Positions 434-15,517 of a stretch of DNA of 15,517 nt are shown piece after piece. The notes under the pieces are model-generated. The model did not search any database and was not told where the DNA came from. It saw nothing but the letters and a program-made list of their open reading frames with translations. Origin of the DNA: a virus; the IMG/VR virus record IMGVR_UViG_3300032038_001095. The stretch is one strand, 5' to 3'. A program made the translations under genes and the position numbers. The first letter of the stretch is position 1; every line of letters begins with the position of its first letter.

Positions 434-471
434 ATAGTATTATTCTCCTTTTTATTTAAATATAAAATAAT

Positions 472-544
472 TTGAGATATTAGGATTTGAACCTAAATCT
501 AAATCTATTTAAAGATTTTATGTTTCCTTTTACACCATATCTCA
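472..544 (-). tRNA. tRNA with non-canonical anticodon arm (anticodon undetermined)
   Basis: perfect 7-bp acceptor TGAGATA/TATCTCA, D-stem GTGT/ACAT, canonical T-arm TTAGG-TTCAAAT-CCTAA; anticodon helix AAATCT/AGATTT gives 6-nt or 8-nt loop (UUUAAAUA) instead of 7. Confidence 0.5.
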
Positions 545-556
545 AACAGGTATTAC

Positions 557-904
557 TTATCCCTGAAGAAAAGATCCCAATAGATCAAAAAAAGAATCTA
601 CATTATATTTGTCATTTTCATTTTTTGTGGCACTTTTGTTTTTTACATCATCAGTAGAATAAGACATATGGAAATATCCATATTCATTTGTAAATTCTTT
701 TAGCAACTTAATAGCTTTTGCCTGAGCTTCATTAGCTTCTTTCAAAGCCTGTTCGACTTCTTTAGCTTTTGTTGCTCTTGCATTTTTCTTAGCTTTTTCA
801 GCTTCAAGCTTTTTACGCTCTTCTTCTCTTGCTTTTGTTTCCGCTTTGATCAGTTCCTGTTCTGTATCATAAAGCGCGTTTAATGTTTCACTGTAGTATT
901 TCAT
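557..904 (-). CDS. hypothetical coiled-coil protein (115 aa)
   Basis: ORF, RBS AGGAAAGG before ATG at 904, TAA stop; Lys/Glu/Ala-rich heptad-like sequence. Confidence 0.65.
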   Translation of the reverse strand: MKYYSETLNALYDTEQELIKAETKAREEERKKLEAEKAKKNARATKAKEVEQALKEANEAQAKAIKLLKEFTNEYGYFHMSYSTDDVKNKSATKNENDKYNVDSFFDLLGSFLQG

Positions 905-1016
905 AATTGTTAGTTCCTTTCCTAACTTTAATATTTTTTTACTGGTTTTATTTTTAGTTGGGGGCTAGCGTCCTAGTCACGTTTCTGAAAAATCAGGCGT
1001 CATTCCAGTTACCCAA

Positions 1017-1089
1017 GGTGACCGATGGGATTTGAACCCACATAAGGCGGATCCACAATCCGCTGCATTACCAAATCTGCCACAGCCAC
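1017..1089 (-). tRNA. tRNA-His (anticodon GUG), no encoded G-1, discriminator C73
   Basis: acceptor GTGGCTG/CGGTCAC, anticodon arm GCGGA-TTGTGGA-TCCGC, T-arm GTGGG-TTCAAAT-CCCAT; base at -1 on the coding strand is T. Confidence 0.85.
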
Positions 1090-1091
1090 AA

Positions 1092-1166
1092 TCGGAGTAG
1101 CGGGACTCGAACCCACAGTCTCTTCATCCCAAATGAAGCGCGCTAGCCAAATTACGCTATACCCCG
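1092..1166 (-). tRNA. tRNA-Pro (anticodon UGG)
   Basis: acceptor CGGGGTA/TACTCCG, D GCGT/GCGC, anticodon arm CTTCA-TTTGGGA-TGAAG, T-arm GTGGG-TTCGAGT-CCCGC; 2 nt upstream of tRNA-His. Confidence 0.9.
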
Positions 1167-1224
1167 ATAATCAAGACACATTTAATACTATATTGCTTTA
1201 CCAATTAAGCTACCTATACCTAAA

Positions 1225-1250
1225 GGCATAAGATTGGATTTGAACCAATT
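1225..1250 (-). pseudogene. tRNA 3' half only (T-arm ATTGG-TTCAAAT-CCAAT + CTTATGC + C), no matching 5' half
   Basis: T-arm and 3' acceptor strand present; required 5' strand GCATAAG absent; flanked by 9-bp inverted repeat AAGACACAT (1174-1182) / ATGTGTCTT (1286-1294). Confidence 0.35.
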
Positions 1251-1311
1251 TAACATATAACATACTTGTATATATATTTTGCTGTATGTGTCTTATATAT
1301 TTTATAAATAT

Positions 1312-1340
1312 ATTATATAATAATCTTTTTTAAAAATCAA
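1312..1340 (-). promoter_or_regulatory. sigma70-type promoter (minus strand TTGATT-N17-TATAAT)
   Basis: rc reads TTGATTtttaaaaaagattattaTATAAT; member of repeated promoter family. Confidence 0.55.
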
Positions 1341-1480
1341 AGATAATCTCTTAATTCAATATATTCTTCAAAAGAACCTAAAAAACCTTCTTTTACTGCT
1401 TGGTCATATTCTTTTCTAATTTTCTATTCGAAAGTTAAATTTTCCTAATCATTATGAGTCATTACTGATTTATTTTCCAT
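1337..1480 (-). CDS. hypothetical 47-aa protein with two in-frame TAG codons (needs TAG readthrough)
   Basis: GAGAGG RBS 6 nt before ATG at 1480, 3 nt after stop of upstream gene; open to TGA at 1337 only if TAG is sense. Confidence 0.35.
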
Positions 1481-1483
1481 TAT

Positions 1484-1813
1484 TTATCCTCTCAGACTAT
1501 CAATGTAGTCTTTTGCTTCTTTATGAGCAAGAATTGCTTCCTGGTTATAAAGAATCATCTGATTTAGACGTTCTTCTGCTTTCATTTTATTTTCTACGGC
1601 TTCCTGAAGTTTTGTCATAGAACGCTTCATTCTTTTCTTTGTTACTTTTTCTTCGCAGCGGGCGGCCGCCAGCTTTCTTCCAAAATCTGGATCATAATTA
1701 TCTCTAGGATCCAGCTTAGCTACTCCACGAATTGTCTTTCCTGCATAAGTTGAAACTGCGATTGTTTTATTATCTGCTGTTGTAAAAAACTTATACTTTG
1801 TAATTGGAAACAT
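1484..1813 (-). CDS. hypothetical protein (109 aa)
   Basis: ORF, RBS AGAAAGG before ATG 1813, TAA stop. Confidence 0.65.
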   Translation of the reverse strand: MFPITKYKFFTTADNKTIAVSTYAGKTIRGVAKLDPRDNYDPDFGRKLAAARCEEKVTKKRMKRSMTKLQEAVENKMKAEERLNQMILYNQEAILAHKEAKDYIDSLRG

Positions 1814-1843
1814 ATTTTTTTACCTTTCTTATTTATTTTTTAG

Positions 1844-1930
1844 CGACGGCAAAGGGACTCGAACCCCTAATACGCTCATCACGTATTAACGCTTTTCAAG
1901 AGCGTCTCCTCATCCAGCCGGATTACCGCC
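1844..1930 (-). tRNA. tRNA-Ser (anticodon UGA), class II with long variable arm
   Basis: acceptor GGCGGTA/TGCCGTC, anticodon arm ACGCT-CTTGAAA-AGCGT, variable hairpin AATACG..CGTATT, T-arm AGGGG-TTCGAGT-CCCTT. Confidence 0.9.
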
Positions 1931-1943
1931 AAAACAAGAGTCA

Positions 1944-2015
1944 TATGCAAGGAGGGATTCGAACCCTCATAGAATCCTTAAAAGGGATTTGTCTTAACCG
2001 TTTGACTACTTATTT
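1944..2015 (-). tRNA. tRNA-Lys (anticodon UUU) with mismatches at acceptor positions 2 and 3
   Basis: anticodon arm AATCC-CTTTTAA-GGATT, T-arm GAGGG-TTCGAAT-CCCTC, D-arm GTCA..AGAC; 5' strand AAATAAG vs 3' CTTGCAT gives A2-A71 and A3-C70 mispairs. Confidence 0.6.
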
Positions 2016-2038
2016 AAAATTGCTGTATGACTCTTTCG

Positions 2039-2130
2039 CGGTCACAGGTGGATTCGAACCACCGGACGAGGAATTTCCCCGTCGGCGGATTAGCAATCCG
2101 CTGCATTAAGCCAAACTCTGCCATGTGACC
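2039..2130 (-). tRNA. tRNA-Ser (anticodon GCU), class II
   Basis: perfect acceptor GGTCACA/TGTGACC, anticodon arm GCGGA-TTGCTAA-TCCGC, long variable hairpin, T-arm GGTGG-TTCGAAT-CCACC. Confidence 0.9.
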
Positions 2131-2139
2131 ATATACAAG

Positions 2140-2215
2140 ATAGTTTATTTGCGTACGACTCGAACGTACTTTCATTACTTTTGCAGAGTAATTTATCATC
2201 CAGAGATATTAAATA
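2140..2215 (-). pseudogene. degenerate tRNA-like element (Cys-GCA-like anticodon arm plus T-arm, no valid acceptor)
   Basis: TTACT-CTGCAAA-AGTAA and GTACG-TTCGAGT-CGTAC present but 7 extra nt between T-stem and the only complementary acceptor strand; D-arm not formable. Confidence 0.3.
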
Positions 2216-2236
2216 TTGCTGTAACTATCTTTAATC

Positions 2237-2308
2237 TAGCTCGCTAGGGAATCGAACCCTAGATTCTAGTTTTAGAGACTAGCGTCTTAACCACTTGACC
2301 ACCGAGCC
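2237..2308 (-). tRNA. amber suppressor tRNA (anticodon CUA, reads UAG)
   Basis: acceptor GGCTCGG/GCGAGCT (6 bp, G7-G66 mispair), D-arm GTCAAGTGGTTAAGAC, anticodon arm CTAGT-CTCTAAA-ACTAG with U33 and A37, T-arm TAGGG-TTCGATT-CCCTA, A73. Confidence 0.85.
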
Positions 2309-2310
2309 AG

Positions 2311-2339
2311 ATAGCATATAAATTTAATATATGCTATAT
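2311..2339 (-). promoter_or_regulatory. perfect 9-bp hairpin immediately upstream of the suppressor tRNA 5' end
   Basis: ATAGCATAT aaatttaat ATATGCTAT; ATAGCATAT motif recurs at 2506. Confidence 0.3.
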
Positions 2340-2692
2340 TTAATCTATATAAATATAAATTTTTTCATTTACTTAACGCCTAGACATTATTAAGGGGTCT
2401 GCGTTGCCACACCTCATCCATTTTTATAAAATAACGCCTCAATTCAAAAATTTATATTTATATTTTTTCTTTCTTCATTTATTGTTTAATCTGTTAGTTA
2501 AACTCTATAGCATATTATAGTTTTCAAAAGAGGATCAATAAGTACAGAAAAATTAATTAAGTATATTTAGAGGATTATAATAATAAAATAAATAACATAT
2601 GCTTTATTTATTTTATTCTTCAACTATCGTATGAAGAACGTCTGCGGATATATCATTTCACCATACAGAAGGACTCACTTAGGGGGAGTCAA

Positions 2693-2775
<83 letters not shown>

Positions 2776-2829
2776 GTTTATTATTATTCAAATAAAGTTT
2801 TTAATACAAAAGATACTATATATAGATAA

Positions 2830-2938
2830 TTATCAGGGTGAGGATTTGCACCTCACATGACACCCGCGAGAATTTGTTTGTGTCAGATGCTACCTCGCGA
2901 TCCATGTAGTCTATGTCTACCTATTCCATCACCTGATA
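2830..2938 (-). ncRNA. tRNA-like structured RNA (E1) with about 55-nt internal insertion and non-canonical T-loop
   Basis: perfect terminal stem TATCAGG/CCTGATA (extendable to 9 bp), TG, class-II-like D-arm ATGG-AATAGGTAGA-CAT, 6-bp hairpin GTGAGG-TGCAAAT-CCTCAC; middle has crossing CGCGAG/CTCGCG and TGACAC/GTGTCA pairings. Confidence 0.5.
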
Positions 2939-3047
2939 ATATGGTCTTTTCCCATTGCCATCCATATTCTACCATGAAGGGTATCACTGCATTAGTCTCC
3001 CAGTGCGGATATCCGCTATCCAGAATGATCTGGCATCACTTTATCAA

Positions 3048-3237
3048 ATATACTGGTAAGGATTTACACCTTACATGGAAGATTCTGAACTTACGTTAGG
3101 ACTCCATTGCATACTACCCACTCGTGTCTTCCTTCAATCCATCGACTACTTTCAGTCTGATTGCAATTCGATTTCTGATTTCATCGCTGCACCAGTTACC
3201 CAATGCAGTAAGCGTCTACTTATTCCGCCACAGTATA
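3048..3237 (-). ncRNA. tRNA-like structured RNA (E2), paralog of E1, Leu-like D-arm, about 115-nt insertion
   Basis: perfect terminal stem TATACTG/CAGTATA, TG, D-arm GCGG-AATAAGTAGA-CGC (near-identical to tRNA-Leu D-arm), 6-bp hairpin GTAAGG-TGTAAAT-CCTTAC; CTTAC/GTAAG can close the insertion. Confidence 0.5.
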
Positions 3238-3357
3238 TATACAAGACAGCATAAAAAATATTTTTTAATAAAAACCTCTTGTATTTGTTAATGTTAAAAT
3301 AAATTTTTTGATTATTTTGCTGTTTTCTACTGTCTTTATATTAAGATTATTTACTTA

Positions 3358-3702
3358 TTATGCCTGATACTCATCCTTAAAATACCATACATCTCCGTAA
3401 GCTTTATGTGTCTTGGTTCTGCCGTTTAGAGCATCCCCAATACCAGACTTACCTTCCTTACCAATTGCCGCCAAAGCTTCCTTCTGTGTCGCATATTCTG
3501 CAATAATCTTTCCTGTTTCTGCATCAATACGAAGGATTCCGCTCTTATTAGGACTCTTTCTCTTCTTCTTAGCAGCTTCTTCCGCAGCCTGCATTTCCTC
3601 AAGATAGGTGCTGAGGACATCAATTACCTGCTCCTGGATACCTGGATCAAGTTCTCCAGAATGTTCAAAATAAAATAACAAACCCTGTACTTTATCTTTC
3701 AT
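3358..3702 (-). CDS. small protein with NUMOD/IENR-like HTH C-terminal domain (114 aa)
   Basis: ORF with AAAAGGAG RBS; C-terminus SGILRIDAETGKIIAEYATQKEALAAIG...YGDVWYFKDE resembles the DNA-binding NUMOD motif of homing-endonuclease-associated proteins. Confidence 0.55.
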   Translation of the reverse strand: MKDKVQGLLFYFEHSGELDPGIQEQVIDVLSTYLEEMQAAEEAAKKKRKSPNKSGILRIDAETGKIIAEYATQKEALAAIGKEGKSGIGDALNGRTKTHKAYGDVWYFKDEYQA

Positions 3703-3735
3703 AAAAATAAATCTCCTTTTTTCTCTTTTATAATT

Positions 3736-3764
3736 ATTATAACAAAAAATTTATATATTATCAA
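3736..3764 (-). promoter_or_regulatory. sigma70-type promoter TTGATA-N17-TATAAT
   Basis: rc reads TTGATAatatataaattttttgtTATAAT, 30 nt upstream of RBS of 3358-3702. Confidence 0.6.
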
Positions 3765-3774
3765 TTTTTTGAAG

Positions 3775-3845
3775 TTCTCAGGTAAGGAATCGAACCTTAC
3801 AACTAATACAAAGTATTAGAATATTTACCATTAATATTACTGAGA
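3775..3845 (-). tRNA. tRNA with ambiguous anticodon arm (UUU with C33, or UUG)
   Basis: acceptor TCTCAGT/CCTGAGA (6 bp + U7-C66), D TATT/AATA, T-arm TAAGG-TTCGATT-CCTTA; anticodon helix CTAAT(A)/(T)ATTAG leaves loop ACTTTGT or 5-nt CTTTG. Confidence 0.5.
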
Positions 3846-4344
3846 ATTTTATAAATAATACATAGAAAGGAAGATTAAAATATAATTTGTTTAAATTATA
3901 TTTAAAATGTCCTATGTAGGAACTGCCCCTACTCCTCTTATCGCCGCGTCTATCCAAGACATTTGCTCAAGGAAGCTAATTTTATAGGACACGCGGAAAC
4001 GGCTTCCGCACTCCTTTTACCTCTTTTATTAAAAAGAGTGGCTCTCCACTCGAATAGAGATTAAAGATAGATGGTTATTATCCTTTAAGGGGTCTATCAA
4101 CTCCCAGTATTAAAATTAAGTATATTTCGCTTTTTTCATAATCGTCTTCCGCCGGAAATATACAAACTGGTCAGGGACTACGTTCGTCGCTCACGAGACA
4201 AAATATTAATCTCAGGCCCAGAGTTTCCTTATCCTGTGTTCTATTGAAGTCACAATGCTTCAATCTGTGGTCACTTAATATTTCCGCAGGGCTTCATTCC
4301 TACACGTCATATCCTGTTAATTCAGGCCTTACAATCCCTTGAAG

Positions 4345-4416
4345 TAACCGGTAGGAGAATCGAACTCCTGTCCTTACCGTGAAAGGGTAATATCTTAGCC
4401 ACTTGACTAACCGGTC
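4345..4416 (-). tRNA. tRNA-Glu (anticodon UUC)
   Basis: acceptor GACCGGT/ACCGGTT, D-arm GTCAAGTGGCTAAGAT, anticodon arm TTACC-CTTTCAC-GGTAA, T-arm AGGAG-TTCGATT-CTCCT. Confidence 0.85.
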
Positions 4417-4844
4417 CTATGAGACTTACGCTTTGCCTCCGGTATGGGCACACCATTGCCGGCGGTAAGCTGTCTAAGTCTTTATGCTTGGTATTGCGAA
4501 CATGCCCCAAGCGGCGACTCCATTAATTTCTTCTCACTCCGCAGAGTGGAATTTGTCGCTGTGACGTAACAGCGAATCCCCTGATAGCCAATCTTTGGAC
4601 GACCGAGGGTCGGGTTCAACCCCTTATCTGTGCATGACCTATGTTTTCGTTTTAATGTACGAAAACGACATATCTTTATATTCTTTACTCCTAGAATTAA
4701 GACTTAACCGGCATCACTTGAGATGCTTTCAGATTTATAATTGGCAAGAAATAAATCAATTCTTTGATTATCAGGTTATCATCCCAGCCTAACGATGGCT
4801 GACGACCTGTGAATTAAGGTTTTAACAGGTTTTACTTACCTTAA

Positions 4845-4916
4845 CGGGGTTAGAAGGATTTGAACCTTCGTAGTACGGTTAACAGCCGTAAGTCCTAACC
4901 ACTGGACGATAACCCC
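4845..4916 (-). tRNA. tRNA-Asn (anticodon GUU)
   Basis: perfect acceptor GGGGTTA/TAACCCC, anticodon arm TACGG-CTGTTAA-CCGTA, T-arm GAAGG-TTCAAAT-CCTTC. Confidence 0.9.
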
Positions 4917-5049
4917 CTTTTCAAGACCTAATAGACTCTTTTTTGTAAAAATGAGGATACCAAATTCGTTCTATTTTTAAATCTACCTCGTTGCTTTCCC
5001 TAAACTTTTATTCATCAGATATTAAATTGCAGTATAGGTCTTTAAAAAA

Positions 5050-5154
5050 TTAATTAAAAAGTTTGTTTAACTCATCTTCATCTTCTTTAGTCAGTATAAA
5101 TTCAAAATCTTCATATTCTTCATAAGATTCATAGAGATCAAAATCATCAAACAT
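5050..5154 (-). CDS. hypothetical very acidic 34-aa peptide
   Basis: AAAGGAGAAA RBS 6 nt before ATG 5154, TAA at 5050; family promoter 25 nt upstream. Confidence 0.35.
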   Translation of the reverse strand: MFDDFDLYESYEEYEDFEFILTKEDEDELNKLFN

Positions 5155-5185
5155 ATTTTATTTCTCCTTTTCTTTTGATATATAT

Positions 5186-5214
5186 ATTATATCAAAAAAC
5201 TTTTTAAAAATCAA
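5186..5214 (-). promoter_or_regulatory. sigma70-type promoter TTGATT-N17(TG)-TATAAT
   Basis: rc reads TTGATTtttaaaaagttttttgaTATAAT. Confidence 0.6.
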
Positions 5215-5360
5215 TAAATAACGTATTGGTTGAGAAAATTAATAATTGATTTTGAATCTGGACTATGTTGTGCTTCATAGAGATTAATGAACATATGTTC
5301 ATCATTAAAAAACTACTTTAAAAAAGTAAACAATTTTAAATCCTCCTTTCTTTTTTAAAA

Positions 5361-5432
5361 CGGCTTTATTGGGAATCGAACCCAAATCTCTTGATAGACA
5401 GTCAAGTATGCTAACCTTTACACCATAAAGCC
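5361..5432 (-). tRNA. tRNA-Asp (anticodon GUC)
   Basis: perfect acceptor GGCTTTA/TAAAGCC, anticodon arm CTTGA-CTGTCTA-TCAAG, T-arm TTGGG-TTCGATT-CCCAA. Confidence 0.9.
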
Positions 5433-5511
5433 AAAGTTATTTTTCTCAGCCTGTTTTACGTCTCCTGCCTTCAGAAAAATAACAAAACCCTGTTTAGACG
5501 CTATAACTTAT

Positions 5512-5688
5512 TTAATAATCAAATTCCCGAGAAATCTTATCATATATCTCAGTTTTTTCAAATTTTACTGTTCCAAACCTATCTTCCAAAAATTTTACCT
5601 GAGAATAACCTTTGACAAATGTAATATGCTTTTTGTTATCATCATCTTTATAATTGACCATATAAACCACTTCTTTTTTATTTACCAT
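5512..5688 (-). CDS. hypothetical protein (58 aa; possible start at 5709 instead)
   Basis: GAGGAGG 8 nt before ATG 5688; in-frame ATG at 5709 lacks an SD; TAA stop. Confidence 0.55.
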   Translation of the reverse strand: MVNKKEVVYMVNYKDDDNKKHITFVKGYSQVKFLEDRFGTVKFEKTEIYDKISREFDY

Positions 5689-5743
5689 AGTCAAAGCCTC
5701 CTCAACCATTTTTTAAGTTTGAAGTTTTTCTTTTGATATATAT

Positions 5744-5772
5744 ATTATATCAAAAATTTTTTTAAATATCAA
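5744..5772 (-). promoter_or_regulatory. sigma70-type promoter TTGATA-N17(TG)-TATAAT
   Basis: rc reads TTGATAtttaaaaaaatttttgaTATAAT. Confidence 0.6.
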
Positions 5773-5834
5773 GACGTTTTATTTTATAGATTAACAGTCT
5801 ATTCCTTTATTATAATTGCTGTAAACGTCTTTAA

Positions 5835-5907
5835 AGCCGCCCGTGGGACTTGAACCCACAACCTAGAGTTTACAAAACTCTTGCGCTGCCAATTGCGCTA
5901 GAGCGGC
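5835..5907 (-). tRNA. tRNA-Thr (anticodon UGU)
   Basis: acceptor GCCGCTC/GGGCGGC, D GCGC-AATTGGCA-GCGC, anticodon arm AGAGT-TTTGTAA-ACTCT, T-arm GTGGG-TTCAAGT-CCCAC. Confidence 0.9.
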
Positions 5908-6628
5908 ATAAAATGGCGGTCTTTATATATTGGCGCCCACCATTCCTTGAAAAAATAATACTATTTTGGAGTTTTTATGTTCCGGCGCTGCCCTTCCCTT
6001 TTGAGTAGTTTTATACGGACTACCATCCGCTTGATCAAGAAATTTTTTCTTTCCCTCACGACATAGAAAAAATTATCAAAAAATCTGTGCCGACAATACT
6101 AGTCTCTTTTTAGTTATTAAGCCAACTTGGTGAATAGTATTGTAAATAATATCCAATGCTATAAATTTTTTATGTTAAAAAATTTATAAAAAATCACCTT
6201 TTTACGATCGCTTAATGGTGGTGTTAAAAGGAAACCGCACCAAAAATTTTATATCCTATAGAGTTTTTATTAGTTTAATTCCAAATCATCTTAACTTATT
6301 TTTAATTAGCCCAATGGACCATACCTCCATTTCGTTAGGATAAATGCTATACCAAAGTCTTGCACTTTGATTTCCAATTTAATGGCGACTTAACTTTTAG
6401 TCGAGTATAGCCGCATTGATTAAAAAGGTAACTTCATCAATGCTTAAGATTGTGAATCTCATAAGTTTTTCCTTAGTTATTTTAAAAAAGTAGATTAACC
6501 TCTGAACTACTCACAGGGGGCACGTTTTGCTGCAACTAATGGCTCTCCCTTTCTTCACTCTCAACGATTTGCAGATCGCAAGGAGGAGGTTTTATCCCGC
6601 ACTTATAGTGGAGGCGGATCTCCACTAG

Positions 6629-6701
6629 TGAGAGACACGGGATTCGAACCCGCAAAAACTAGTTTCTAAAACTAGAATGTATGCCGTTCCATCAATCTCT
6701 C
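6629..6701 (-). tRNA. class-I tRNA with anticodon UAG (reads CUA; Leu by codon table), A73
   Basis: acceptor GAGAGAT/GTCTCTC, anticodon arm CTAGT-TTTAGAA-ACTAG, 5-nt variable loop, T-arm GCGGG-TTCGAAT-CCCGT; standard 73-nt numbering fits. Confidence 0.8.
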
Positions 6702-6742
6702 TCGGAATATTTTCCAATTCCTTTTCTTAACTTTCTATAAAT

Positions 6743-6771
6743 ATTATATAATATTTTTTAGAAAATTTCAA
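6743..6771 (-). promoter_or_regulatory. sigma70-type promoter TTGAAA-N17-TATAAT directly upstream of the UAG-anticodon tRNA
   Basis: rc reads TTGAAAttttctaaaaaatattaTATAAT; -10 is about 42 nt upstream of tRNA 5' end. Confidence 0.55.
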
Positions 6772-7169
6772 ATAAAAACATTTGAAACGACTATATTAAG
6801 GTTATCGGTTTATATTAATTATTGTAAGTATCTTGAATGGGCAGAGTGGGTGCCGACCCCACTACGCTAAAGAGCAACGGTTTTACAGACCGCCGAGTTT
6901 GCCGATTCTCTGTACCTACCCATGTGGGGTAGTTGAGCTCCCGCTCTAAAGACTAGCCACCCTGCGCCTAGATCTTTTTCCCTGCACCACTCGATGGGAA
7001 AAAATCCAAAAAACTCATGAGGATCACGTTTAGCTACATAGTCACGTCTGACATTTTTCACTATACTAATGACCTTGTACTTCGATCTCCCGTTACTATA
7101 ATCCAACCAGAACGGTGAAGAGGGTGTTCTTAGGTACCGCTAAGGAGCTACCTTAGACGGAGAACACAG

Positions 7170-7242
7170 TAGCGGAACTAGGATTCGAACCTAGGATTAC
7201 TAGCTTATGAGGCTAGTGTCTTAACCACTTGACGATTCCGCT
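7170..7242 (-). tRNA. tRNA-Met elongator type (anticodon CAU; Ile-lysidine type not excluded)
   Basis: perfect acceptor AGCGGAA/TTCCGCT with A1-U72, D-arm GTCAAGTGGTTAAGAC, anticodon arm CTAGC-CTCATAA-GCTAG, T-arm CTAGG-TTCGAAT-CCTAG. Confidence 0.85.
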
Positions 7243-7543
7243 TCATTGTCGGTCTTCCACCGACAGTTTTTAGAAGTTACTTTCTTCATCGGTATAGATT
7301 TTACTTCCCTATACTGAAGTTTACCGAGTGTGCAGTTGATCCTAATCCTCCTTTAGGCTTTGAATCCTACGGTATACTCGTTTCGGATCTTAATCACACG
7401 CATCTCCTGTGAATTGCATAGACTTTATTGATTTATCACCGTATATTACGGCGCTGTGTTCTCCCCACAGATGTTCCACATACAGAGCTTTATTTTCTTA
7501 TCGGCTTTTAATACTTGCCTATCGGTATTTGTTTTATATAATT

Positions 7544-7572
7544 ATTATATAATAATTTTTTTAAAAAATCAA
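7544..7572 (-). promoter_or_regulatory. sigma70-type promoter TTGATT-N17-TATAAT facing the tRNA-Met region
   Basis: rc reads TTGATTttttaaaaaaattattaTATAAT; overlaps stop codon of 7573-8121. Confidence 0.55.
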
Positions 7573-8121
7573 TTACGGCCACTCTCCAAGTGGTTTACCA
7601 AGTGCTCCATGCTCAATATCTGTATTAAAATAAACAGGAGCATTATAAAATTCTTTATATTCTTCAAAAACATCATTTGCAATTGTTTCATAAAGAGTAC
7701 TTACAATACCATGACAATCATTTAAATTATCATTAAAAAACTGAACTACATAATTCTTAAATACAACATAAGTTGCAGGAATCCAATATGTATCATCTCC
7801 TGGAGTAACTGCATAAGCAAAAGCAGGATTTCCCTCAAATGCAACTTCAAAAAGTTCTTTTGCAGAAGTAAAAGTACGATTTGAAGGAACACCATCAATA
7901 GAAATATTAAGTACAATATTTCCAAAAACTTTTTCTGTTGGAAGTAATTCCATTAAAGCAGCTGTTTTATCTCCATTTCCACAAGCAAGTACAACAGAAG
8001 GTCCATCACTAGTATTGTAATTTACATTAAATGCAATAAGCGGATCGCCATCAAAAAGAGCCTACAATTCATTTACATATGTAATCCACGGGGGTGAAAG
8101 TTTAAGTCTTACATCACTCAT
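7573..8121 (-). CDS. hypothetical protein (182 aa) with one in-frame TAG (codon 20, 8062-8064)
   Basis: AAAGGAG RBS 9 nt before ATG 8121; frame continues through TAG into the 126-aa standard-code ORF 7573-7953; TAA stop. Confidence 0.7.
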
Positions 8122-8324
8122 TTTTTATTTCTCCTTTTTAAAAATAAACTAGGATACGTCTGCAGCCGCCTAGACTCTTTTTCGCCGAGCAAGCGAGAAA
8201 GTTTTTAGCCACAATCTCTATCGCCGCGTGCTTACCATGTCGCCGGTTAAGTTCTACGTCTTAAAACGTTTAGTTTTATTTAAATTGATAGACTAAATAA
8301 CTATCAGTGGCTTCGTCAGCCAAA

Positions 8325-8397
8325 AGCACCATGTGGGAATCGAACCCACCCCAGAAGATTGGAAATCTACTATACTAATCCAATATACGAATGGTGC
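8325..8397 (-). tRNA. tRNA-Gly (anticodon UCC)
   Basis: perfect acceptor GCACCAT/ATGGTGC, anticodon arm GTAGA-TTTCCAA-TCTTC (one U-U mispair), T-arm GTGGG-TTCGATT-CCCAC; D-loop 9 nt. Confidence 0.75.
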
Positions 8398-8596
8398 ATA
8401 ATTCGGGATAATGGCCATCTTTCCCTATACTTTCAACACTTTGAATAACTACGGCGGAGAAACCTATTAACCCATCCGCGCATATACGACATCTTTAGTT
8501 TTATGGTAAAACTACTGAGGAGTATATGAGGCAATCTGAAAACCTTTACTTTTATTAAGGAATAAAGTAAATAAGACCTTTATATTTTATAGTAAT

Positions 8597-8625
8597 ATTA
8601 TATCAAAAATTTTTTAAAAGATCAA
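8597..8625 (-). promoter_or_regulatory. sigma70-type promoter TTGATC-N17(TG)-TATAAT facing tRNA-Gly
   Basis: rc reads TTGATCttttaaaaaatttttgaTATAAT. Confidence 0.55.
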
Positions 8626-8638
8626 ACAGGTTTTGTCC

Positions 8639-8935
8639 TTATTTACTATGATAACATTTTTTCCAAAATTTATAAAGCTCTTTAAGAGTTGGATAATGTT
8701 CTCGTAAATAAGTATTTTTTAATCCATTTTCCCATTCTTTTTTTACTTCAGGCCATGACCATCTTGATATATAATCATGAATATTCCAAGAGTTATATAG
8801 TTTTTTATAATTTTTGCCATTTGCAAGATTATTTTTATATTTTCTAACTATTTTATTAGCCCTTCGTTTCCATGGTTTTCTTCCTGCTTTTCCTCCATCT
8901 GTACAATAAGGATGTTTTTTAAAAGAACGACTCAT
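8639..8935 (-). CDS. hypothetical basic protein (98 aa)
   Basis: ORF, RBS AAAGGAAGG before ATG 8935, TAA stop. Confidence 0.65.
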   Translation of the reverse strand: MSRSFKKHPYCTDGGKAGRKPWKRRANKIVRKYKNNLANGKNYKKLYNSWNIHDYISRWSWPEVKKEWENGLKNTYLREHYPTLKELYKFWKKCYHSK

Positions 8936-8963
8936 ATATTTTTCCTTCCTTTTTTTATATAAA

Positions 8964-8992
8964 TATTATATAAAAAATTTTTAAAAAAGTAA
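8964..8992 (-). promoter_or_regulatory. weaker promoter (TATAAT -10, TTACTT -35)
   Basis: rc reads ttacttttttaaaaattttttaTATAAT upstream of 8639-8935. Confidence 0.4.
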
Positions 8993-8996
8993 AATA

Positions 8997-9422
8997 TTAC
9001 TATATTCGATACGTATTAATATATGCTAATCCCCAAGAGGGTATCTAAGAATGGTTATTGACATATATATCTATACATCCTTCTTCTACTCCGCGGTCTT
9101 CGCATGTATAATACCCTAAACCCTCAACATAAAGTACTGTTCCATATGGTATATCTTCTCCACATGCACATGTATGATTAGCTTGCGGCCACGCCCCTGA
9201 TGCAGTTGGAGATCCAGCCCATTCTCCACAACAACAAGAGCCGCCGCAATAAAAGGTAACTCTATATTCTCCTAAATAAATTCTTGTCTATTGATAATTA
9301 AATTTCTACTAAATTAATTGCTATTTGAACTAAAGTGTTTTATCACTGATAGCAAATATATTTGAACATGTTAAAAATATCAGTAGAATCATACTACTGA
9401 TTAATTTTATTATTTTTTTCAT
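8997..9422 (-). CDS. secreted 3D-domain protein (MltA-C/YocH-like cell-wall binding/lytic fold), 141 aa, 7 in-frame TAG codons
   Basis: AAGGAGG 6 nt before ATG 9422; N-terminal signal peptide MKKIIKLISSMILLIFLTCSNIFA; motif VTFYCGGSCCCG...TASG...PYGTVLYVEGLGYYTCEDRG...IDIY; readable only if TAG is sense; TAA stop. Confidence 0.75.
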
Positions 9423-9440
9423 TTATTTCCTCCTTAAAAA

Positions 9441-9514
9441 TAGGGACGAGGGGACTTGAACCCCCAGCCTTTGGTTTATAAGACCACTGCGCTAACCGAT
9501 TGCGCCACGCCCCA
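9441..9514 (-). tRNA. tRNA-Ile (anticodon UAU) with U1-U72 mispair
   Basis: acceptor TGGGGCG/CGTCCCT (6 bp + U-U at 1:72), D GCGC-AATCGGTTA-GCGC, anticodon arm GTGGT-CTTATAA-ACCAA, T-arm GGGGG-TTCAAGT-CCCCT; ends 6 nt before RBS of 3D gene. Confidence 0.75.
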
Positions 9515-12213: not shown

Positions 12214-13098
12214 AATAATACAACGGGAAAGTTTTGTCTGCTTGATTCCTTTATATTCTGAATGTTCTTTTACCGTTCCCGTAAGAAGAATTTCTTCTCC
12301 TTCTTCAATATCTTTACAAGAGGAAGTAATCCATACAAGAACATTTTCTCCATATGTAAAAGTATAAATAAATGATGTGCCATAAAAACTATCAAAACTG
12401 CGGACTGCGGTTAATGTAACCTTAAGATCGCGGAGTCTCTCTTTTATCTCCCCGACATATTCAGAATGAGATTCAGGTTCAAGTGTTGCTTTAGCAGCGT
12501 CCGCAATCTCTTTAGCATTATCTTTAAGTTCAAACCTTTCAGAAAGCGGATACCAAACATATACATCATAAAAATTAATACTTGCCATACCATAACCAAT
12601 AGGAACATCAATTGGATGGTTACTATACCAGCCAAATGCAGGATTAAATTTACATCCCATTTCTTTAAGCTGGTCTTTAATTTCATAGGTACTGCCGCCG
12701 CCAACTAACCAGATAAGAGGATTTTCTACATTATATCCCCACTTAGCAAGAAGTGCTTCCTGGTTTTCTTTACTTTTGTTAAGTTTTTCCTGTCTTTCAA
12801 GTTCAGCTTTTTCAGCTTTCCTTTCTTTTGCTCGTTCCTGAGAAGCAAGATATTTATTCATTTCTTCTTCAGTATAAGCTTTTACCCATTTATGGATTTT
12901 TCCGTCTCCGTGACATTTATAACAAATGCCACCATCAACAGGAATAGGAATAATATGACCATTTTCTACTCTTGCTGCGATAAGACCGGAACCGCCGCAA
13001 CGATCACACTGTTCTTCAATATAAGCCTTTTTTGTATCTTCATTAACAGAGAGGATCTTTGCGTTTTTATAAGAGGGAGCAACTTTCCAATTCATCAT
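12199..13098 (-). CDS. hypothetical protein (299 aa) with N-terminal zinc ribbon (CDRC...CYKCHGDG)
   Basis: ORF, RBS AGGAAG before ATGATG, TAA stop. Confidence 0.7.
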   Translation of the reverse strand: MMNWKVAPSYKNAKILSVNEDTKKAYIEEQCDRCGGSGLIAARVENGHIIPIPVDGGICYKCHGDGKIHKWVKAYTEEEMNKYLASQERAKERKAEKAELERQEKLNKSKENQEALLAKWGYNVENPLIWLVGGGSTYEIKDQLKEMGCKFNPAFGWYSNHPIDVPIGYGMASINFYDVYVWYPLSERFELKDNAKEIADAAKATLEPESHSEYVGEIKERLRDLKVTLTAVRSFDSFYGTSFIYTFTYGENVLVWITSSCKDIEEGEEILLTGTVKEHSEYKGIKQTKLSRCIIKKEA

Positions 13099-13425: not shown

Positions 13426-13454
13426 ATTATAATAAAAAAAATATAAAAAAGCAA
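13426..13454 (-). promoter_or_regulatory. promoter TTGCTT-N17-TATAAT overlapping terminator stem
   Basis: rc reads TTGCTTttttatattttttttatTATAAT. Confidence 0.45.
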
Positions 13455-13474
13455 GAGAGAATAATCTCTCCTGC
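13445..13474 (-). terminator. rho-independent terminator after the Thg1-like gene
   Basis: GCAGGAGAGATTATTCTCTCTTGC hairpin on minus strand followed by TTTTTTATATTTTTTTT. Confidence 0.6.
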
Positions 13475-13476
13475 TT

Positions 13477-14280
13477 TTATTCCTCATTTATAAAGATTAA
13501 TTTATCAATATAATTACGATCATCTTTTAAAATTGGCATTTCTTTATCAATAAACCAATGATTATTTTCATCTTTAATACATGCGGAACCCCGTTTTTTT
13601 ACTATAGGTAAATCATTCCAATTGATATTTTTTTCTGTAAGAAGTTTGTTTTGAAGCTGATTACAAGATAATCCTTGTATTTCTTTATGTGAAAAATTAG
13701 CTTGTGCTACCATTTGAATTGAGTTACGTGTTGCATCGAGCTGCCGCCAATAAATAAGATTAGTTACTTCCTCTTTTGGAATGTTAAAACAACGGGCATC
13801 AAACATTGCACCTTTATTAATTGCTCTACAATATGTATCAATATATTTATTATATTTAGTTTCTTTATTGTTATTACCGTCTATAAAAACATCAACTAAA
13901 ATATCATTTAAATTAGCAATAAGACGTTTATTAAAACTCATAGTAGCCATAGATGCGGCAATACTACAAAGTTTTTGTATTTTATAATCAAACCATGCAG
14001 AACTTTCTAATTTTGCATAATCAATAAGAATCAATGTAATTTCATCTGATTGTGTATATCCAAAAACACATCCTTGGATATTTTCACAAAGATATTGCAT
14101 TGTTTCTTGCATAGTTTTAATTAAAATATCATCAAAAGGTTTTTTAAATTCTCTACAAAAGGTATGAAAACTTTTTCCATCAATACGAATAGCAACAGGA
14201 GTTCTACGAGTTAAACGTACATTTGGTATATTTTCATAGTTTTCTTTCATACGTTTTCCAAGATTATCATGAATCGGCAT
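13477..14280 (-). CDS. thg1: Thg1-like protein (tRNA-His guanylyltransferase / 3'-5' nucleotidyltransferase family), 267 aa
   Basis: AAAGGAGAAAAA RBS before ATG 14280 (track ORF starts 5 codons earlier at a TTG); family motifs KRMKENYE...VAIRIDGKSFHTFCREFKKPFDD...GYTQSDE...KIQKLCSIAAS...IYWRQLDA. Confidence 0.8.
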   Translation of the reverse strand: MPIHDNLGKRMKENYENIPNVRLTRRTPVAIRIDGKSFHTFCREFKKPFDDILIKTMQETMQYLCENIQGCVFGYTQSDEITLILIDYAKLESSAWFDYKIQKLCSIAASMATMSFNKRLIANLNDILVDVFIDGNNNKETKYNKYIDTYCRAINKGAMFDARCFNIPKEEVTNLIYWRQLDATRNSIQMVAQANFSHKEIQGLSCNQLQNKLLTEKNINWNDLPIVKKRGSACIKDENNHWFIDKEMPILKDDRNYIDKLIFINEE

Positions 14281-14291
14281 TTTTTCTCCTT

Positions 14292-14477
14292 TCAACCATA
14301 AATTATTTCAAAACCGCAATCTGGACAAATTATTTTAACAGTTTCATAAGGTTTTCTATTTTTAAATTTAATTAAATTTCCACAAATACAAAAAACTCCA
14401 TTATTAAATTTTTTAGATAACTTCATATCACTTGATAAGCATATTTTCATATCTCTTCTCGGAATTTCTCGTATCAT
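14292..14477 (-). CDS. small zinc-ribbon protein (61 aa, C-x-C ... CPDC)
   Basis: ORF, RBS AAGGAAA, TGA stop adjacent to the Thg1-like RBS. Confidence 0.6.
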   Translation of the reverse strand: MIREIPRRDMKICLSSDMKLSKKFNNGVFCICGNLIKFKNRKPYETVKIICPDCGFEIIYG

Positions 14478-14566: not shown

Positions 14567-15517
14567 TTATTCAGGAATAGATTTAAGAATACCTTCAAGA
14601 GAAGTTCCACGAAGTAACTTATTAACTACTTCAGGTACGCTCTTATCTTGTGCAATAGCAAGAGGTGACATATTAACTGTAACTGTTTCTAACAGATCAG
14701 AATTTGCTTTAGCGGTAAGTGCTGCAATAAGATCTGGACTAATAGATGTTACAATTTCTTTAATTGTTGCTGCATAAGCTTCCTGTTTTGCTTTTTCAAG
14801 ATCTGCCTGCTTTTTCTTATATTCAATAGCTATTTCATTGCTAGCTTTTTCGCGGGCGTTCTTTGCGTCTTCGATTGCGGTTAAAATACTCTGAAGATCA
14901 GATTCTGCCTGTACCTTAGCGGCTTCCGCAGCTCTCTTCTTTTCATTAATTTCATTTTGAGCAAGAATTTTATTCTTTTCAAACTGTGCATCAAGATTAA
15001 GTTGCTGCTGGCGAACCTCATATTCAAGCTGCTGTTCTTTCTGCTGATACTCAGTTAACTGTTTTGTTACTTCAGCTTTTTGTGCTGCTTCTGATAAAGA
15101 TAATGTTTTTTCAACAATATCTGACTGATGAGATTCAAGAATTTTTGCTATGTTAGCCTGGACTTTAACAGCTAAAAGTTCTACATCTTTTACAAGCATA
15201 CCATTTTCAGAAAAGAATCTACCTTTAGGTCTACCTTCTGTAGATGTTTTTTCATTAAGATCGAGCACTACTTTTCTAACGATTTCTGTAGCATTAGTAT
15301 AAAATTCTTCAATAGTATATTTCTGAACTTCCTGTTTTAACAAACTTCTTTCTTTATCACAAAGATGTTTTACATAATTTTCTACGGAAAACCACTTATT
15401 TTTATATTTTTCAAGAAAATCTACATCATAAGATACTTCAAGTTTTACAGATACGAAATCTTTTGTATGAGCTACAATAACGTCAGAAATCTTATTATTT
15501 TCTACTCTTAAAAATGC
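14567..15517 (-). CDS. SPFH/band-7 (flotillin/HflC-like) domain protein, 5' end outside window
   Basis: frame open from window end (no stop in the 58 codons above the track's TTG start) to TAA 14567; SPFH-like segment with VENY motif followed by long Glu/Gln/Lys/Ala coiled coil. Confidence 0.65.
   Translation of the reverse strand, partial: AFLRVENNKISDVIVAHTKDFVSVKLEVSYDVDFLEKYKNKWFSVENYVKHLCDKERSLLKQEVQKYTIEEFYTNATEIVRKVVLDLNEKTSTEGRPKGRFFSENGMLVKDVELLAVKVQANIAKILESHQSDIVEKTLSLSEAAQKAEVTKQLTEYQQKEQQLEYEVRQQQLNLDAQFEKNKILAQNEINEKKRAAEAAKVQAESDLQSILTAIEDAKNAREKASNEIAIEYKKKQADLEKAKQEAYAATIKEIVTSISPDLIAALTAKANSDLLETVTVNMSPLAIAQDKSVPEVVNKLLRGTSLEGILKSIPE

What the first reader, a model, noticed from the sequence alone, without database searches (positions are those of the whole stretch)
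13477..14280. Thg1-like 3'-5' nucleotidyltransferase encoded beside a phage tRNA island: candidate tRNA 5'-end maturation/repair system
The 267-aa protein carries the Thg1/TLP hallmark segments (RIDGxxFHxF...KPxD..., YGQSDE-like GYTQSDE, conserved K..AS and WRQ.D). Thg1 enzymes add G-1 to tRNA-His, and bacterial/archaeal TLPs repair 5'-truncated or mispaired tRNA 5' ends by templated 3'-5' polymerisation. In the same window the tRNA-His gene (1017-1089) has T, not G, at -1 and a C73 discriminator, so the mature tRNA would lack G-1 unless it is added post-transcriptionally opposite C73. Two other tRNAs have mismatches confined to the first three acceptor positions (Lys 1944-2015 at positions 2 and 3; Ile-UAU 9441-9514 at position 1), the exact substrates of TLP 5' editing in amoebozoan mitochondria. 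A phage TLP could also re-synthesise tRNA 5' ends damaged by host anticodon/acceptor nucleases. The operon also holds a zinc-ribbon protein (14292-14477) and several unknowns that may be partners.
Basis: partly seen in the sequence, partly recalled or inferred. Interest (0 to 1): 0.85.

Follow-up and report, generated by a model that had tools for sequence, protein, structure and literature searches.

The report
Phage Thg1-like tRNA 5'-end polymerase
The gene is a genuine but already well-catalogued phage copy of a "backwards" RNA polymerase (Thg1-like protein) that rebuilds tRNA 5' ends; in this phage lineage it travels with a histidine tRNA gene that lacks its usual extra 5' G, which gives a neat testable job for the enzyme, but the wider claims (tRNA editing, operon partners) do not hold up.

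Summary
Window 14280..13477 (minus strand) encodes a 267-aa Thg1-like protein (TLP): Pfam Thg1 E=2.9e-30, PHROG 4717 E=3e-85, and B. thuringiensis TLP (4KGK) E=1.9e-63, with all catalytic and NTP-binding residues conserved.

The tRNA-His gene (1089..1017) has U at -1, G1-C72 and C73, so no G-1 is encoded. All 51 readable tRNA-His genes of this type in IMG/VR are the same. At least 35 of the 52 contigs carrying them also carry a TLP. These fall in two groups whose TLPs are 47% identical and whose TLP flanks share no other window protein. Templated G-1 addition opposite C73 is therefore a good lineage-specific hypothesis.

It is not a general rule. About 7 of 11 TLP-linked tRNA-His types elsewhere encode G-1. 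About a quarter of sampled phage tRNA-His genes are U-1/C73, and cyanophage S-PM2 has that type with no TLP.

The 5'-editing idea is not supported. Mismatches at positions 1-3 are no more frequent near TLPs. The Ile U1·U72 fits a family-wide weak 1:72 pair with U72. Only tRNA-Lys has mismatches that remain unexplained.

The neighbouring genes are not conserved partners, and a terminator follows the TLP gene. Phage TLPs are already annotated in over 160 GenBank phages. Verdict: a new member of a known kind, of moderate interest.

The parts
13477..14280 (-). Thg1-like protein (TLP) gene, 267 aa. Templated 3'-5' nucleotidyltransferase of the bacterial TLP type, with a ~38-aa insertion (residues ~120-157) relative to BtTLP.
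   Evidence: Pfam PF04446 E=2.9e-30. PHROG 4717 E=3.2e-85. PDB 4KGK E=1.9e-63. D34/D79/E80, E16, R32, R163 and R179 are invariant in the 12-sequence alignment A1; K47 is invariant in A4 and aligns with BtTLP K43. Predicted fold matches only Thg1/TLP structures.
13447..13478 (-). Intrinsic-terminator-like hairpin (14-bp stem, T-run) immediately after the TLP stop codon.
1017..1090 (-). tRNA-His(GUG) gene plus its -1 position: T at -1 (1090), G1-C72, C73 (1017), no encoded CCA. Candidate natural substrate for templated G-1 addition.
   Evidence: All 51 readable relatives are T-1/C73.
1092..1166 (-). tRNA-Pro(UGG), separated from tRNA-His +1 by only two T residues.
1944..2015 (-). tRNA-Lys(UUU) with A2.A71 and A3.C70 mismatches. 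The only tRNA here whose 5' mismatches remain unexplained.
   Evidence: The Lys tRNAs of relatives have paired stems.
9441..9514 (-). tRNA-Ile(UAU) with U1.U72. Consistent with the weak 1:72 pair with U72 typical of phage tRNA-Ile(UAU).
   Evidence: Same mismatch in L003/L004. 26 of 38 unique phage tRNA-Ile(UAU) have a non-Watson-Crick 1:72 pair.
1845..1930 (-). tRNA-Ser(UGA) of the 8/4 type (8-bp acceptor stem, 4-bp T stem). Not mismatched.
471..9514 (-). tRNA island: 16 tRNA genes, all on the TLP strand and downstream of it, none with encoded CCA. Includes a tRNA(CUA) and a tRNA with an 8-nt anticodon loop.
14292..14477 (-). 61-aa Cys-rich (CxC...CxxC) ORF between the vault-like gene and the TLP. 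Not a conserved TLP partner.
   Evidence: 0 of 171 TLP loci have a homologue. Absent from the syntenic relative L015.
14567..15517 (-). C-terminal 316 aa of a major-vault-protein-like gene that runs off the window (824 aa in the relative L015).
   Evidence: Present in 6 of 171 TLP loci.

Best explanation
The gene encodes an active bacterial-type Thg1-like protein. This enzyme activates a tRNA 5'-monophosphate with ATP or GTP and then adds nucleotides in the 3'-5' direction, using the 3' strand of the acceptor stem as template.

Proposed pathway in this phage lineage:
1. RNase P cuts the tightly packed tRNA-Pro/tRNA-His precursor at the default site after U-1, giving a tRNA-His that starts at G+1.
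2. The TLP adds G-1 opposite the conserved C73, creating the G-1:C73 element that bacterial HisRS normally needs.
3. The same activity can refill any 5'-truncated tRNA, so a back-up repair role comes with it.

Shown: enzyme family membership, intact active site, absence of an encoded G-1, conservation of C73, and co-inheritance of the TLP with this tRNA-His type.

Inferred: the RNase P cleavage site, that G-1 is actually added, and that the host HisRS needs it.
For: Family and active site. Residue equivalences were checked against the BtTLP structure paper, PMC3701042.

BtTLP and other TLPs carry out templated 5'-end repair on many tRNAs and show G-1 addition activity on tRNA-His in vitro (PMC3701042).

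tRNA-His anatomy. T is the default -1 base of phage tRNAs (67%), whereas G is rare (2.9%). So U-1 means ordinary processing and no hidden G-1.

All 51 readable tRNA-His genes sharing this anticodon arm are T-1/C73. Their acceptor stems vary but stay paired.

At least 35 of those 52 contigs (32 of the 42 that are >=85 kb) carry a TLP on the same contig, by my cross-match of contig names. In 21 loci the tRNA-His lies ~9-10 kb downstream on the same strand; in the window it is 12.4 kb downstream.

The two TLP groups are only 47% identical, and their TLP flanks share no other window protein.
Against: BtTLP prefers 5'-truncated tRNAs to full-length tRNA-His kinetically.

In other TLP-bearing phage lineages the nearby tRNA-His encodes G-1: about 7 of 11 lineage-level types. 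This is no different from a pattern-based baseline, where 44 of 79 unique genes have G at -1.

U-1/C73 tRNA-His is common in phages (19 of 79 unique). It occurs in a clade of at least 120 cyanomyovirus contigs. Its reference genome S-PM2 has no TLP at hmmsearch E<=10, while the positive control scored 1e-90. A phage TLP is therefore not required for such a gene to persist.

The co-inheritance could be shared ancestry rather than functional coupling.

The host and its HisRS type are unknown.
Confidence: 0.5

Rival explanations
1. General tRNA 5'-end repair or quality control, with no special tie to tRNA-His. The TLP refills acceptor stems of phage or host tRNAs that have lost 5' nucleotides, through host nucleases, defence systems or imprecise processing of the densely packed tRNA array. 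This keeps translation running during infection.
For: This is the biochemically preferred TLP reaction (PMC3701042). It is also the role predicted for phage Thg1 in comparative genomics (PMC7824862). TLPs occur in many phage lineages whose tRNA-His already encodes G-1, and in Caulobacter and Brevundimonas phages. 47 of 171 TLP loci have tRNA genes within 10 kb. Fnu1 carries an annotated RNA ligase/phosphoesterase gene in the same 40-kb region.
Against: I know of no tRNA nuclease that removes 5'-terminal nucleotides, and my literature searches found none. No conserved repair partners (ligase, kinase-phosphatase) were seen in this window. This reading does not explain why C73 without G-1 is invariant in this lineage.
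Confidence: 0.35
2. Amoebozoan-style tRNA 5' editing. Mismatched 5' nucleotides of tRNA-Lys (positions 2-3) and tRNA-Ile (position 1) are removed by an unknown nuclease. The TLP then re-synthesises them against the 3' strand.
For: tRNA-Lys really has A2.A71 and A3.C70 mismatches confined to the first three positions. TLPs perform this reaction in Dictyostelium mitochondria (cited in PMC3701042).
Against: There is no enrichment of position 1-3 mismatches near TLPs: 11 of 212 versus 56 of 905, p=0.75. There is also none in loci with G-1-less tRNA-His: 4.8% versus 4.9%. Relatives' Lys and Ser tRNAs are fully paired. The Ile mismatch recurs in a relative, and 26 of 38 phage tRNA-Ile(UAU) have a non-Watson-Crick 1:72 pair. 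The Ser 'mismatches' are an 8/4-fold artefact. Conserved position 2-3 mismatches occur in tRNA-Trp of S-PM2, which lacks a TLP. No 5' nuclease candidate was found.
Confidence: 0.07
3. The TLP acts on something other than tRNA 5' ends in vivo, such as other small RNAs or RNA 5' capping-like nucleotidylation. Alternatively it is a dispensable, horizontally acquired accessory gene.
For: The physiological substrates of bacterial TLPs are not established (PMC3701042). The gene sits in a variable neighbourhood with its own terminator.
Against: TLP genes repeatedly sit next to same-strand tRNA islands. The active site is strongly conserved across at least 8000 metagenomic homologues.
Confidence: 0.08

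Closest known systems
Bacillus thuringiensis Thg1-like protein (BtTLP; PDB 4KGK/4KGM)
   Same: Same family and subtype: E=1.9e-63, with roughly half the residues identical in the printed alignment over both domains. The metal-binding carboxylates (D30/D75/E76 = D34/D79/E80), the ATP-activation lysine (K43 = K47) and the triphosphate-binding residues (E12, R28, R131, R147 = E16, R32, R163, R179) are the same. The expected chemistry is templated 3'-5' addition.
   Different: It is phage-encoded and has a ~38-aa variable insertion between the two domains. It sits upstream of a tRNA island whose tRNA-His lacks G-1. According to the literature, G-1 is normally gene-encoded in bacteria and BtTLP's in vivo role is unknown.
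Phage 'tRNA-His guanylyltransferase' family (PHROG 4717; e.g. Bacillus phage Bc431v3 gp143, Fusobacterium phage Fnu1 gp147, Pseudomonas phage 201phi2-1, Lak phages)
   Same: Direct homologues at 29-57% identity in 161 GenBank phage records. They are often in tRNA-rich large phages and are already annotated and discussed as tRNA-modifying or repair enzymes.
   Different: This lineage (57% identity to the best GenBank hit, an unannotated gut contig) pairs the TLP with an invariantly G-1-less, C73 tRNA-His. Fnu1 and several other TLP phages encode G at -1.
Archaeal TLP/Thg1 that adds G-1 opposite C73 (e.g. Methanosarcina TLP, PDB 5AXK-5AXN)
   Same: The proposed in vivo logic is the same: a tRNA-His with C73, and G-1 supplied post-transcriptionally by Watson-Crick templated addition (PMC9508852 abstract).
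   Different: Sequence relation is only distant (E=4e-8). The cellular versus viral context differs, and the activity has not been shown here.
Eukaryotic Thg1 (human THG1 3OTB, yeast 5XOX)
   Same: Same fold and catalytic core.
   Different: Eukaryotic Thg1 adds G-1 opposite A73 without a template and recognises the His anticodon. The window protein has EEVTNLIYWRQ where yeast Thg1 has the HINNLYN segment, and it clusters with TLPs.
TLP-dependent mitochondrial tRNA 5' editing in Amoebozoa
   Same: Mismatches in the first three acceptor positions of one tRNA (Lys), together with a TLP.
   Different: There is no multi-tRNA pattern, no conservation in relatives, no statistical enrichment and no nuclease candidate.

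Membership tests
Thg1/TLP superfamily (Pfam PF04446) | Thg1 catalytic domain scoring above Pfam's curated cut-off | tested here: met
   105.3 bits against a cut-off of 29.2, E=2.9e-30, covering profile positions 3-130 of 130.
Thg1/TLP superfamily (Pfam PF04446) | Three conserved active-site carboxylates (hTHG1 D29/D76/E77; BtTLP D30/D75/E76) | tested here: met
   D34, D79 and E80 align to them and are invariant in 12 and in 20 homologues.
Thg1/TLP superfamily (Pfam PF04446) | Activation and nucleotidyl-transfer residues (BtTLP E12, R28, K43, R131, R147) | tested here: met
   E16, R32, K47, R163 and R179 are conserved.
Thg1/TLP superfamily (Pfam PF04446) | Polymerase-palm-like Thg1 fold | tested here: met
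   The AlphaFold model has only moderate confidence (pLDDT 64.5, pTM 0.66). Even so, its 32 significant PDB matches are all Thg1/TLP chains, the best being BtTLP at E=5e-19. The sequence match to 4KGK is decisive on its own.
Bacterial-type TLP (as opposed to eukaryotic Thg1) | Closer to characterised TLPs than to Thg1, and lacking the eukaryotic HINNLYN anticodon-recognition segment | tested here: met
   BtTLP E=1.9e-63 versus yeast or human Thg1 at about 1e-8. EEVTNLIYWRQ aligns to yeast DTHINNLYNTTFWQ.
Bacterial-type TLP (as opposed to eukaryotic Thg1) | Template-dependent 3'-5' addition and 5'-end repair activity; homotetramer | not testable with these tools
   Needs purified protein. Inferred from homology only.
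Post-transcriptional G-1 addition system (TLP plus G-1-less, C73 tRNA-His) | tRNA-His gene without G at -1 but with a C73 template | tested here: met
   The window has T-1/C73, as do all 51 readable relatives.
Post-transcriptional G-1 addition system (TLP plus G-1-less, C73 tRNA-His) | Consistent co-occurrence of the enzyme with the G-1-less tRNA-His | tested here: inconclusive
   Within the lineage, at least 35 of 52 contigs have both. Across phages there is no association. S-PM2 has the tRNA type without a TLP.
Post-transcriptional G-1 addition system (TLP plus G-1-less, C73 tRNA-His) | Mature tRNA-His carries G-1, and the host HisRS depends on it | not testable with these tools
   Needs tRNA 5'-end mapping and knowledge of the host.
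TLP-dependent tRNA 5' editing (amoebozoan mitochondrial type) | Several tRNA genes with mismatches confined to acceptor positions 1-3 that must be corrected | tested here: not met
   Only tRNA-Lys qualifies. The Ile 1:72 mismatch fits a family-wide weak pair. The Ser case is an 8/4-fold artefact. There is no enrichment near TLPs.
TLP-dependent tRNA 5' editing (amoebozoan mitochondrial type) | A 5' nuclease activity that removes the mismatched nucleotides | not tested
   No candidate was recognised among the neighbours. The enzyme is unidentified even in Amoebozoa (from my own knowledge).

The most novel reading that the evidence does not exclude
This gut-type phage lineage may have made its TLP an obligatory tRNA-maturation enzyme. 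That would be the first case in the bacterial or phage world of post-transcriptional, C73-templated G-1 addition to tRNA-His. It might extend to true 5' editing of the mismatched tRNA-Lys, which would be a viral counterpart of amoebozoan mitochondrial tRNA editing. The probability and interest given here are for the full reading, G-1 addition plus editing. G-1 addition alone I put at about 0.45, with interest about 0.55.
Probability: 0.07. Interest if true: 0.8.

Novelty: new member of a known kind. Interest (0 to 1): 0.4.

Why it matters
What bacterial-type TLPs do in living cells is still open; according to the papers read here, their repair and G-1 activities are known mainly in vitro. This phage lineage carries a TLP together with an invariantly G-1-less, C73 tRNA-His. 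That offers a natural substrate-enzyme pair for a clean test: map the tRNA-His 5' ends with and without the TLP.

The wider side observation may matter more. About a quarter of sampled phage tRNA-His genes lack the encoded G-1 yet keep C73, and this includes the TLP-less cyanophage S-PM2. That raises the question of how such tRNAs are charged.

The gene itself is ordinary: it belongs to an already annotated phage protein family.

Tried and rejected
1. Reading the ORF on the plus strand gives only stop codons. The gene is on the minus strand.

2. DNA search of GenBank phages with the TLP region found no close relative. blastn with the tRNA-His gene to find TLP-positive GenBank phages was unproductive.

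3. NCBIfam gave no hits for the TLP or six neighbouring ORFs. Pfam and PHROGs gave nothing informative for the neighbours, apart from a weak DnaJ-type zinc-finger hit and unknown-function PHROGs for the 299-aa ORF.

4. I tested whether the neighbours are TLP partners by tblastn against 171 TLP loci and rejected it.

5. I briefly suspected an in-frame TAG in the upstream gene, because of the tRNA(CUA). This was wrong: the ORF is open and simply runs off the window.

6. I first counted tRNA-Ser(UGA) as a third 5'-mismatched tRNA. This was rejected after Infernal showed an 8/4 fold.

7. I tested for enrichment of position 1-3 mismatches near TLPs and in loci with G-1-less tRNA-His. Both tests were negative.

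8. I tested whether TLP presence predicts a missing G-1 across lineages. It does not.

9. A contig-wide census of TLPs for all U-1/C73 contigs was not possible. The tools return only stretches of at most ~20 kb and the best 80 loci per scan.

10. Literature searches found no experimental work on a phage TLP.

Full report
**1. Observation**

The window carries 16 tRNA genes, all on the minus strand (471-9514). A run of minus-strand ORFs lies upstream of them.

The flagged ORF reads on the minus strand from ATG 14280 to the stop at 13477 and encodes 267 aa. The plus-strand translation is full of stop codons.

**2. Identity of the protein**

- Pfam Thg1 (PF04446) scores 105 bits against a cut-off of 29.2, E=2.9e-30.
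- PHROG 4717, 'tRNA-His guanylyltransferase', scores E=3.2e-85.
- The closest solved structure is the Bacillus thuringiensis Thg1-like protein (4KGK/4KGM) at E=1.9e-63.
- Archaeal TLP and yeast, human and Candida Thg1 are far weaker, at 1e-6 to 1e-8.

Using that alignment and the BtTLP paper (PMC3701042), the functional residues map as follows:

| BtTLP | Window protein | Role |
|---|---|---|
| D30, D75, E76 | D34, D79, E80 | metal-binding carboxylates |
| K43 | K47 | ATP-activation lysine |
| E12, R28, R131, R147 | E16, R32, R163, R179 | triphosphate-binding network |

D34, D79, E80, E16, R32, R163 and R179 are invariant in a 12-member alignment spanning 40-74% identity. All eight, including K47, are invariant in a 20-member alignment.

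Where yeast Thg1 has the HINNLYN segment, the window protein has EEVTNLIYWRQ. It is therefore a TLP, not a eukaryotic-type Thg1.

An AlphaFold model built from a shallow alignment reached only moderate confidence (pLDDT 64.5). Even so, its 32 significant PDB matches are all Thg1/TLP chains, with BtTLP first. Relative to BtTLP there is a ~38-aa insertion of variable length between the two domains.

**3. How common the family is**

- tblastn finds homologues in 161 GenBank phage records: Bacillus 46, Prevotella Lak phages 15, Caulobacter 13, Mycobacterium 11 and others. Most are already annotated as tRNA-His guanylyltransferase.
- At least 8000 metagenomic proteins match.
- At least 570 IMG/VR loci match.
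- Phage Thg1 was noted in 2010 (PMC2904730) and in the Bc431v3 genome paper (PMC3601020). A jumbo-phage survey proposed that it restores tRNA 5' ends (PMC7824862).
- I found no experimental study of a phage TLP.

The gene as such is not new.

**4. The tRNA-His claim**

On the minus strand the gene reads U(-1) | GUGGCUG ... CGGUCAC | C73. That gives G1-C72, no encoded CCA, and only two T residues between the tRNA-Pro discriminator and His +1.

Among 841 non-His phage tRNAs, T is the usual -1 base (67%) and G is rare (2.9%). So this is an ordinary RNase P context with no hidden G-1.

A 21-nt pattern from the anticodon arm retrieved 52 IMG/VR contigs. All 51 readable genes are T-1/C73 and lack CCA. 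Their acceptor stems differ (GUGACUA, GUGGCUG, GUGACCG, GUGGAUA, GUGACUG) but stay paired. The G-1-less, C73 state is therefore stable and selected.

One of these contigs is the window's closest syntenic relative, L015/L307 (67% TLP identity). A second, abundant group carries a TLP only 47% identical to the window's.

Using that second TLP as a query and matching contig names by hand, at least 35 of the 52 contigs encode a TLP. For contigs of 85 kb or more the figure is 32 of 42. In 21 of these loci the tRNA-His lies ~9-10 kb downstream on the same strand. None of the window's other proteins has a homologue there.

So two well-diverged groups share the TLP-plus-G-1-less-tRNA-His arrangement. 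Because TLPs add nucleotides by Watson-Crick templating, G-1 opposite C73 is the natural reaction.

**5. Limits of that idea**

*TLP-linked tRNA-His in other lineages.* I examined tRNA-His genes within 10-20 kb of a TLP, or in the same complete genome.

| Source | -1 / 73 |
|---|---|
| L090 (same contig as L293) | G / C |
| L247 | G / C |
| L270 | G / C |
| L291 and L295 | G / C |
| L252 | G / A |
| L279 | G / A |
| Fusobacterium phage Fnu1 | G / A |
| L008 | A / A |
| Bacillus phage PHZU0001 | C / A |

 About 7 of 11 lineage-level types therefore encode G at -1, when the window's lineage and the second TLP group are counted as the two U-1/C73 types.

*Baseline.* A pattern-based sample of phage tRNA-His genes gave 79 unique sequences. 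Of these, 44 have G at -1 and 19 are T-1/C73. This is no different from the TLP-linked set.

*A TLP-less example.* One large T-1/C73 clade, at least 120 contigs, is the S-PM2-like cyanomyoviruses. I assembled the complete S-PM2 genome from four loci, plus the region deleted in that isolate. A TLP profile found nothing at E<=10, while the same profile scored 1e-90 on PHZU0001.

A phage TLP is thus neither necessary for a G-1-less, C73 tRNA-His nor confined to phages that have one.

**6. The 5'-editing claim**

- **tRNA-Lys.** It has A2.A71 and A3.C70, flagged as non-canonical by Infernal as well. The tRNA-Lys genes of relatives are fully paired.
- **tRNA-Ile(UAU).** U1.U72 recurs in L003/L004, whose stem is otherwise different. 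Of 38 unique phage tRNA-Ile(UAU), 26 have a non-Watson-Crick 1:72 pair (22 wobble, 4 mismatched), against 15% for all tRNAs. In the listing these mostly carry U72. It looks like a family feature rather than a defect.
- **tRNA-Ser(UGA).** ARAGORN suggested a third case. It is in fact an 8/4-type tRNA with a perfect 8-bp acceptor stem, GGCGGUAA/UUGCCGUC. This type has been described in phages (PMC5389517).
- **Statistics.** Position 1-3 mismatches occur in 11 of 212 TLP-proximal tRNAs and 56 of 905 baseline tRNAs, p=0.75. They are equally frequent in loci with G-1-less and with G-1-encoding tRNA-His, 4.8% versus 4.9%. Many position-1 mismatches belong to initiator-like tRNA-Met.
- **A counter-example.** Conserved U2.U71/U3.U70 mismatches occur in tRNA-Trp of the TLP-less S-PM2.

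Editing is therefore unsupported. Only tRNA-Lys remains a candidate, and it could equally be a decaying gene.

**7. Context**

The gene order on the minus strand is:

1. the C-terminal part of a major-vault-protein-like gene, which is 824 aa in L015 with MVP shoulder (E=3e-26) and vault-repeat domains;
2. a 61-aa Cys-rich ORF;
3. the TLP gene;
4. a strong terminator hairpin at 13478-13447;
5. small unknown ORFs, including a 299-aa protein with a weak DnaJ-type zinc-finger hit and another terminator;
6. the tRNA island.

The 61-aa ORF has no homologue in any of 171 TLP loci and is missing from L015. The other neighbours occur only in the closest relatives. They are not conserved partners.

**8. 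Conclusion**

The protein is certainly a bacterial-type TLP. The best functional model for this lineage is templated G-1 addition to the phage's own tRNA-His, with general 5'-end repair as an inherent second capacity. General repair alone is the main rival.

The finding is a new member of a known, already annotated phage family. Its value is that it supplies a clean, testable enzyme-substrate pair. It also exposed a broader puzzle: G-1-less, C73 tRNA-His genes are widespread in phages, including phages without a TLP.

Noticed in passing
window 2237-2308 (-); also L003 8731-8804, L014 312-401: An amber-suppressor-type tRNA with anticodon CUA (ARAGORN labels it 'Pyl') sits in the tRNA island and recurs in relatives. 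This hints at TAG reassignment or suppression in this phage group. The ORFs I read in this window contain no in-frame TAG.
   Followed up: partly
window 472-544 (-): A tRNA-like gene (Rfam tRNA, 51.6 bits) with an 8-nt anticodon loop, which ARAGORN reads as the 4-base anticodon 'uaaa'. A similar 'ttat' tRNA occurs in 12 loci of the related clade. It may be a frameshift-suppressor-like or otherwise unusual decoder.
   Followed up: no
window 1845-1930 (-): tRNA-Ser(UGA) has the non-canonical 8/4 architecture: an 8-bp acceptor stem GGCGGUAA/UUGCCGUC and a 4-bp T stem. It misses the Rfam tRNA gathering score and matches tRNA-Sec best, at 37 bits. It resembles the (8/4) tRNA-Ser reported from phages in PMC5389517.
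   Followed up: partly
window 14567-15517 (-), continuing beyond the window; L015 7441-9915: The gene upstream of the TLP is a major-vault-protein homologue: 824 aa in L015, with Pfam MVP_shoulder E=3e-26 and Vault_3. A phage-encoded vault-like protein is unusual. It occurs in 6 of 171 TLP loci, and Fnu1 has a 'prohibitin family' gene near its TLP.
   Followed up: partly
window 471-9514, all 16 tRNAs: None of the window's tRNA genes encodes the 3' CCA, whereas several related TLP-phage tRNA islands (L003-L008) do. This phage therefore depends on a CCA-adding enzyme, and none was recognised in the window.
   Followed up: no
L092-L211 and L401-L511 (IMG/VR); S-PM2 LN828717.1 109843-109917 (L512 1345-1418): About a quarter of sampled phage tRNA-His genes (19 of 79 unique) have U at -1 and C73, so no G-1 is encoded. 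A clade of at least 120 cyanomyovirus contigs, including S-PM2, has this type, and the complete S-PM2 genome has no TLP. How these tRNAs acquire HisRS identity is unclear.
   Followed up: partly
L512 1495-1568 (S-PM2 tRNA-Trp); L096, L100, L110, L141, L183, L189, L192: Phage tRNA-Trp(CCA) genes of the S-PM2-like group carry U2.U71 and U3.U70 mismatches, conserved across different stem sequences. This looks like a selected structural feature of unknown meaning.
   Followed up: no
window 9441-9514; 38 unique tRNA-Ile(UAU) genes in the fetched loci: Phage tRNA-Ile(UAU) usually has a weak 1:72 pair: G.U in 22, mismatch in 4 and Watson-Crick in 12. Across all tRNAs only 15% are non-Watson-Crick at this position.
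   Followed up: partly
window 12199-13098 (-): A 299-aa protein with two CxxCxGxG-like motifs (weak DnaJ central-domain hit, E=6.5e-4). Its C-terminal ~95 aa is shared with several PHROGs of unknown function (30451, 2319, 4095, 3628, 27218). It is followed by its own terminator at 12213-12186.
   Followed up: no
L090 18806-18878, L291 4243-4317, L270 4052-4137: Several TLP-linked tRNA-His genes that do encode G-1 show paired mismatches in the middle of the acceptor stem (positions 4-5 or 5-6) under ARAGORN's 7/5 reading. These may be further non-canonical folds.
   Followed up: no
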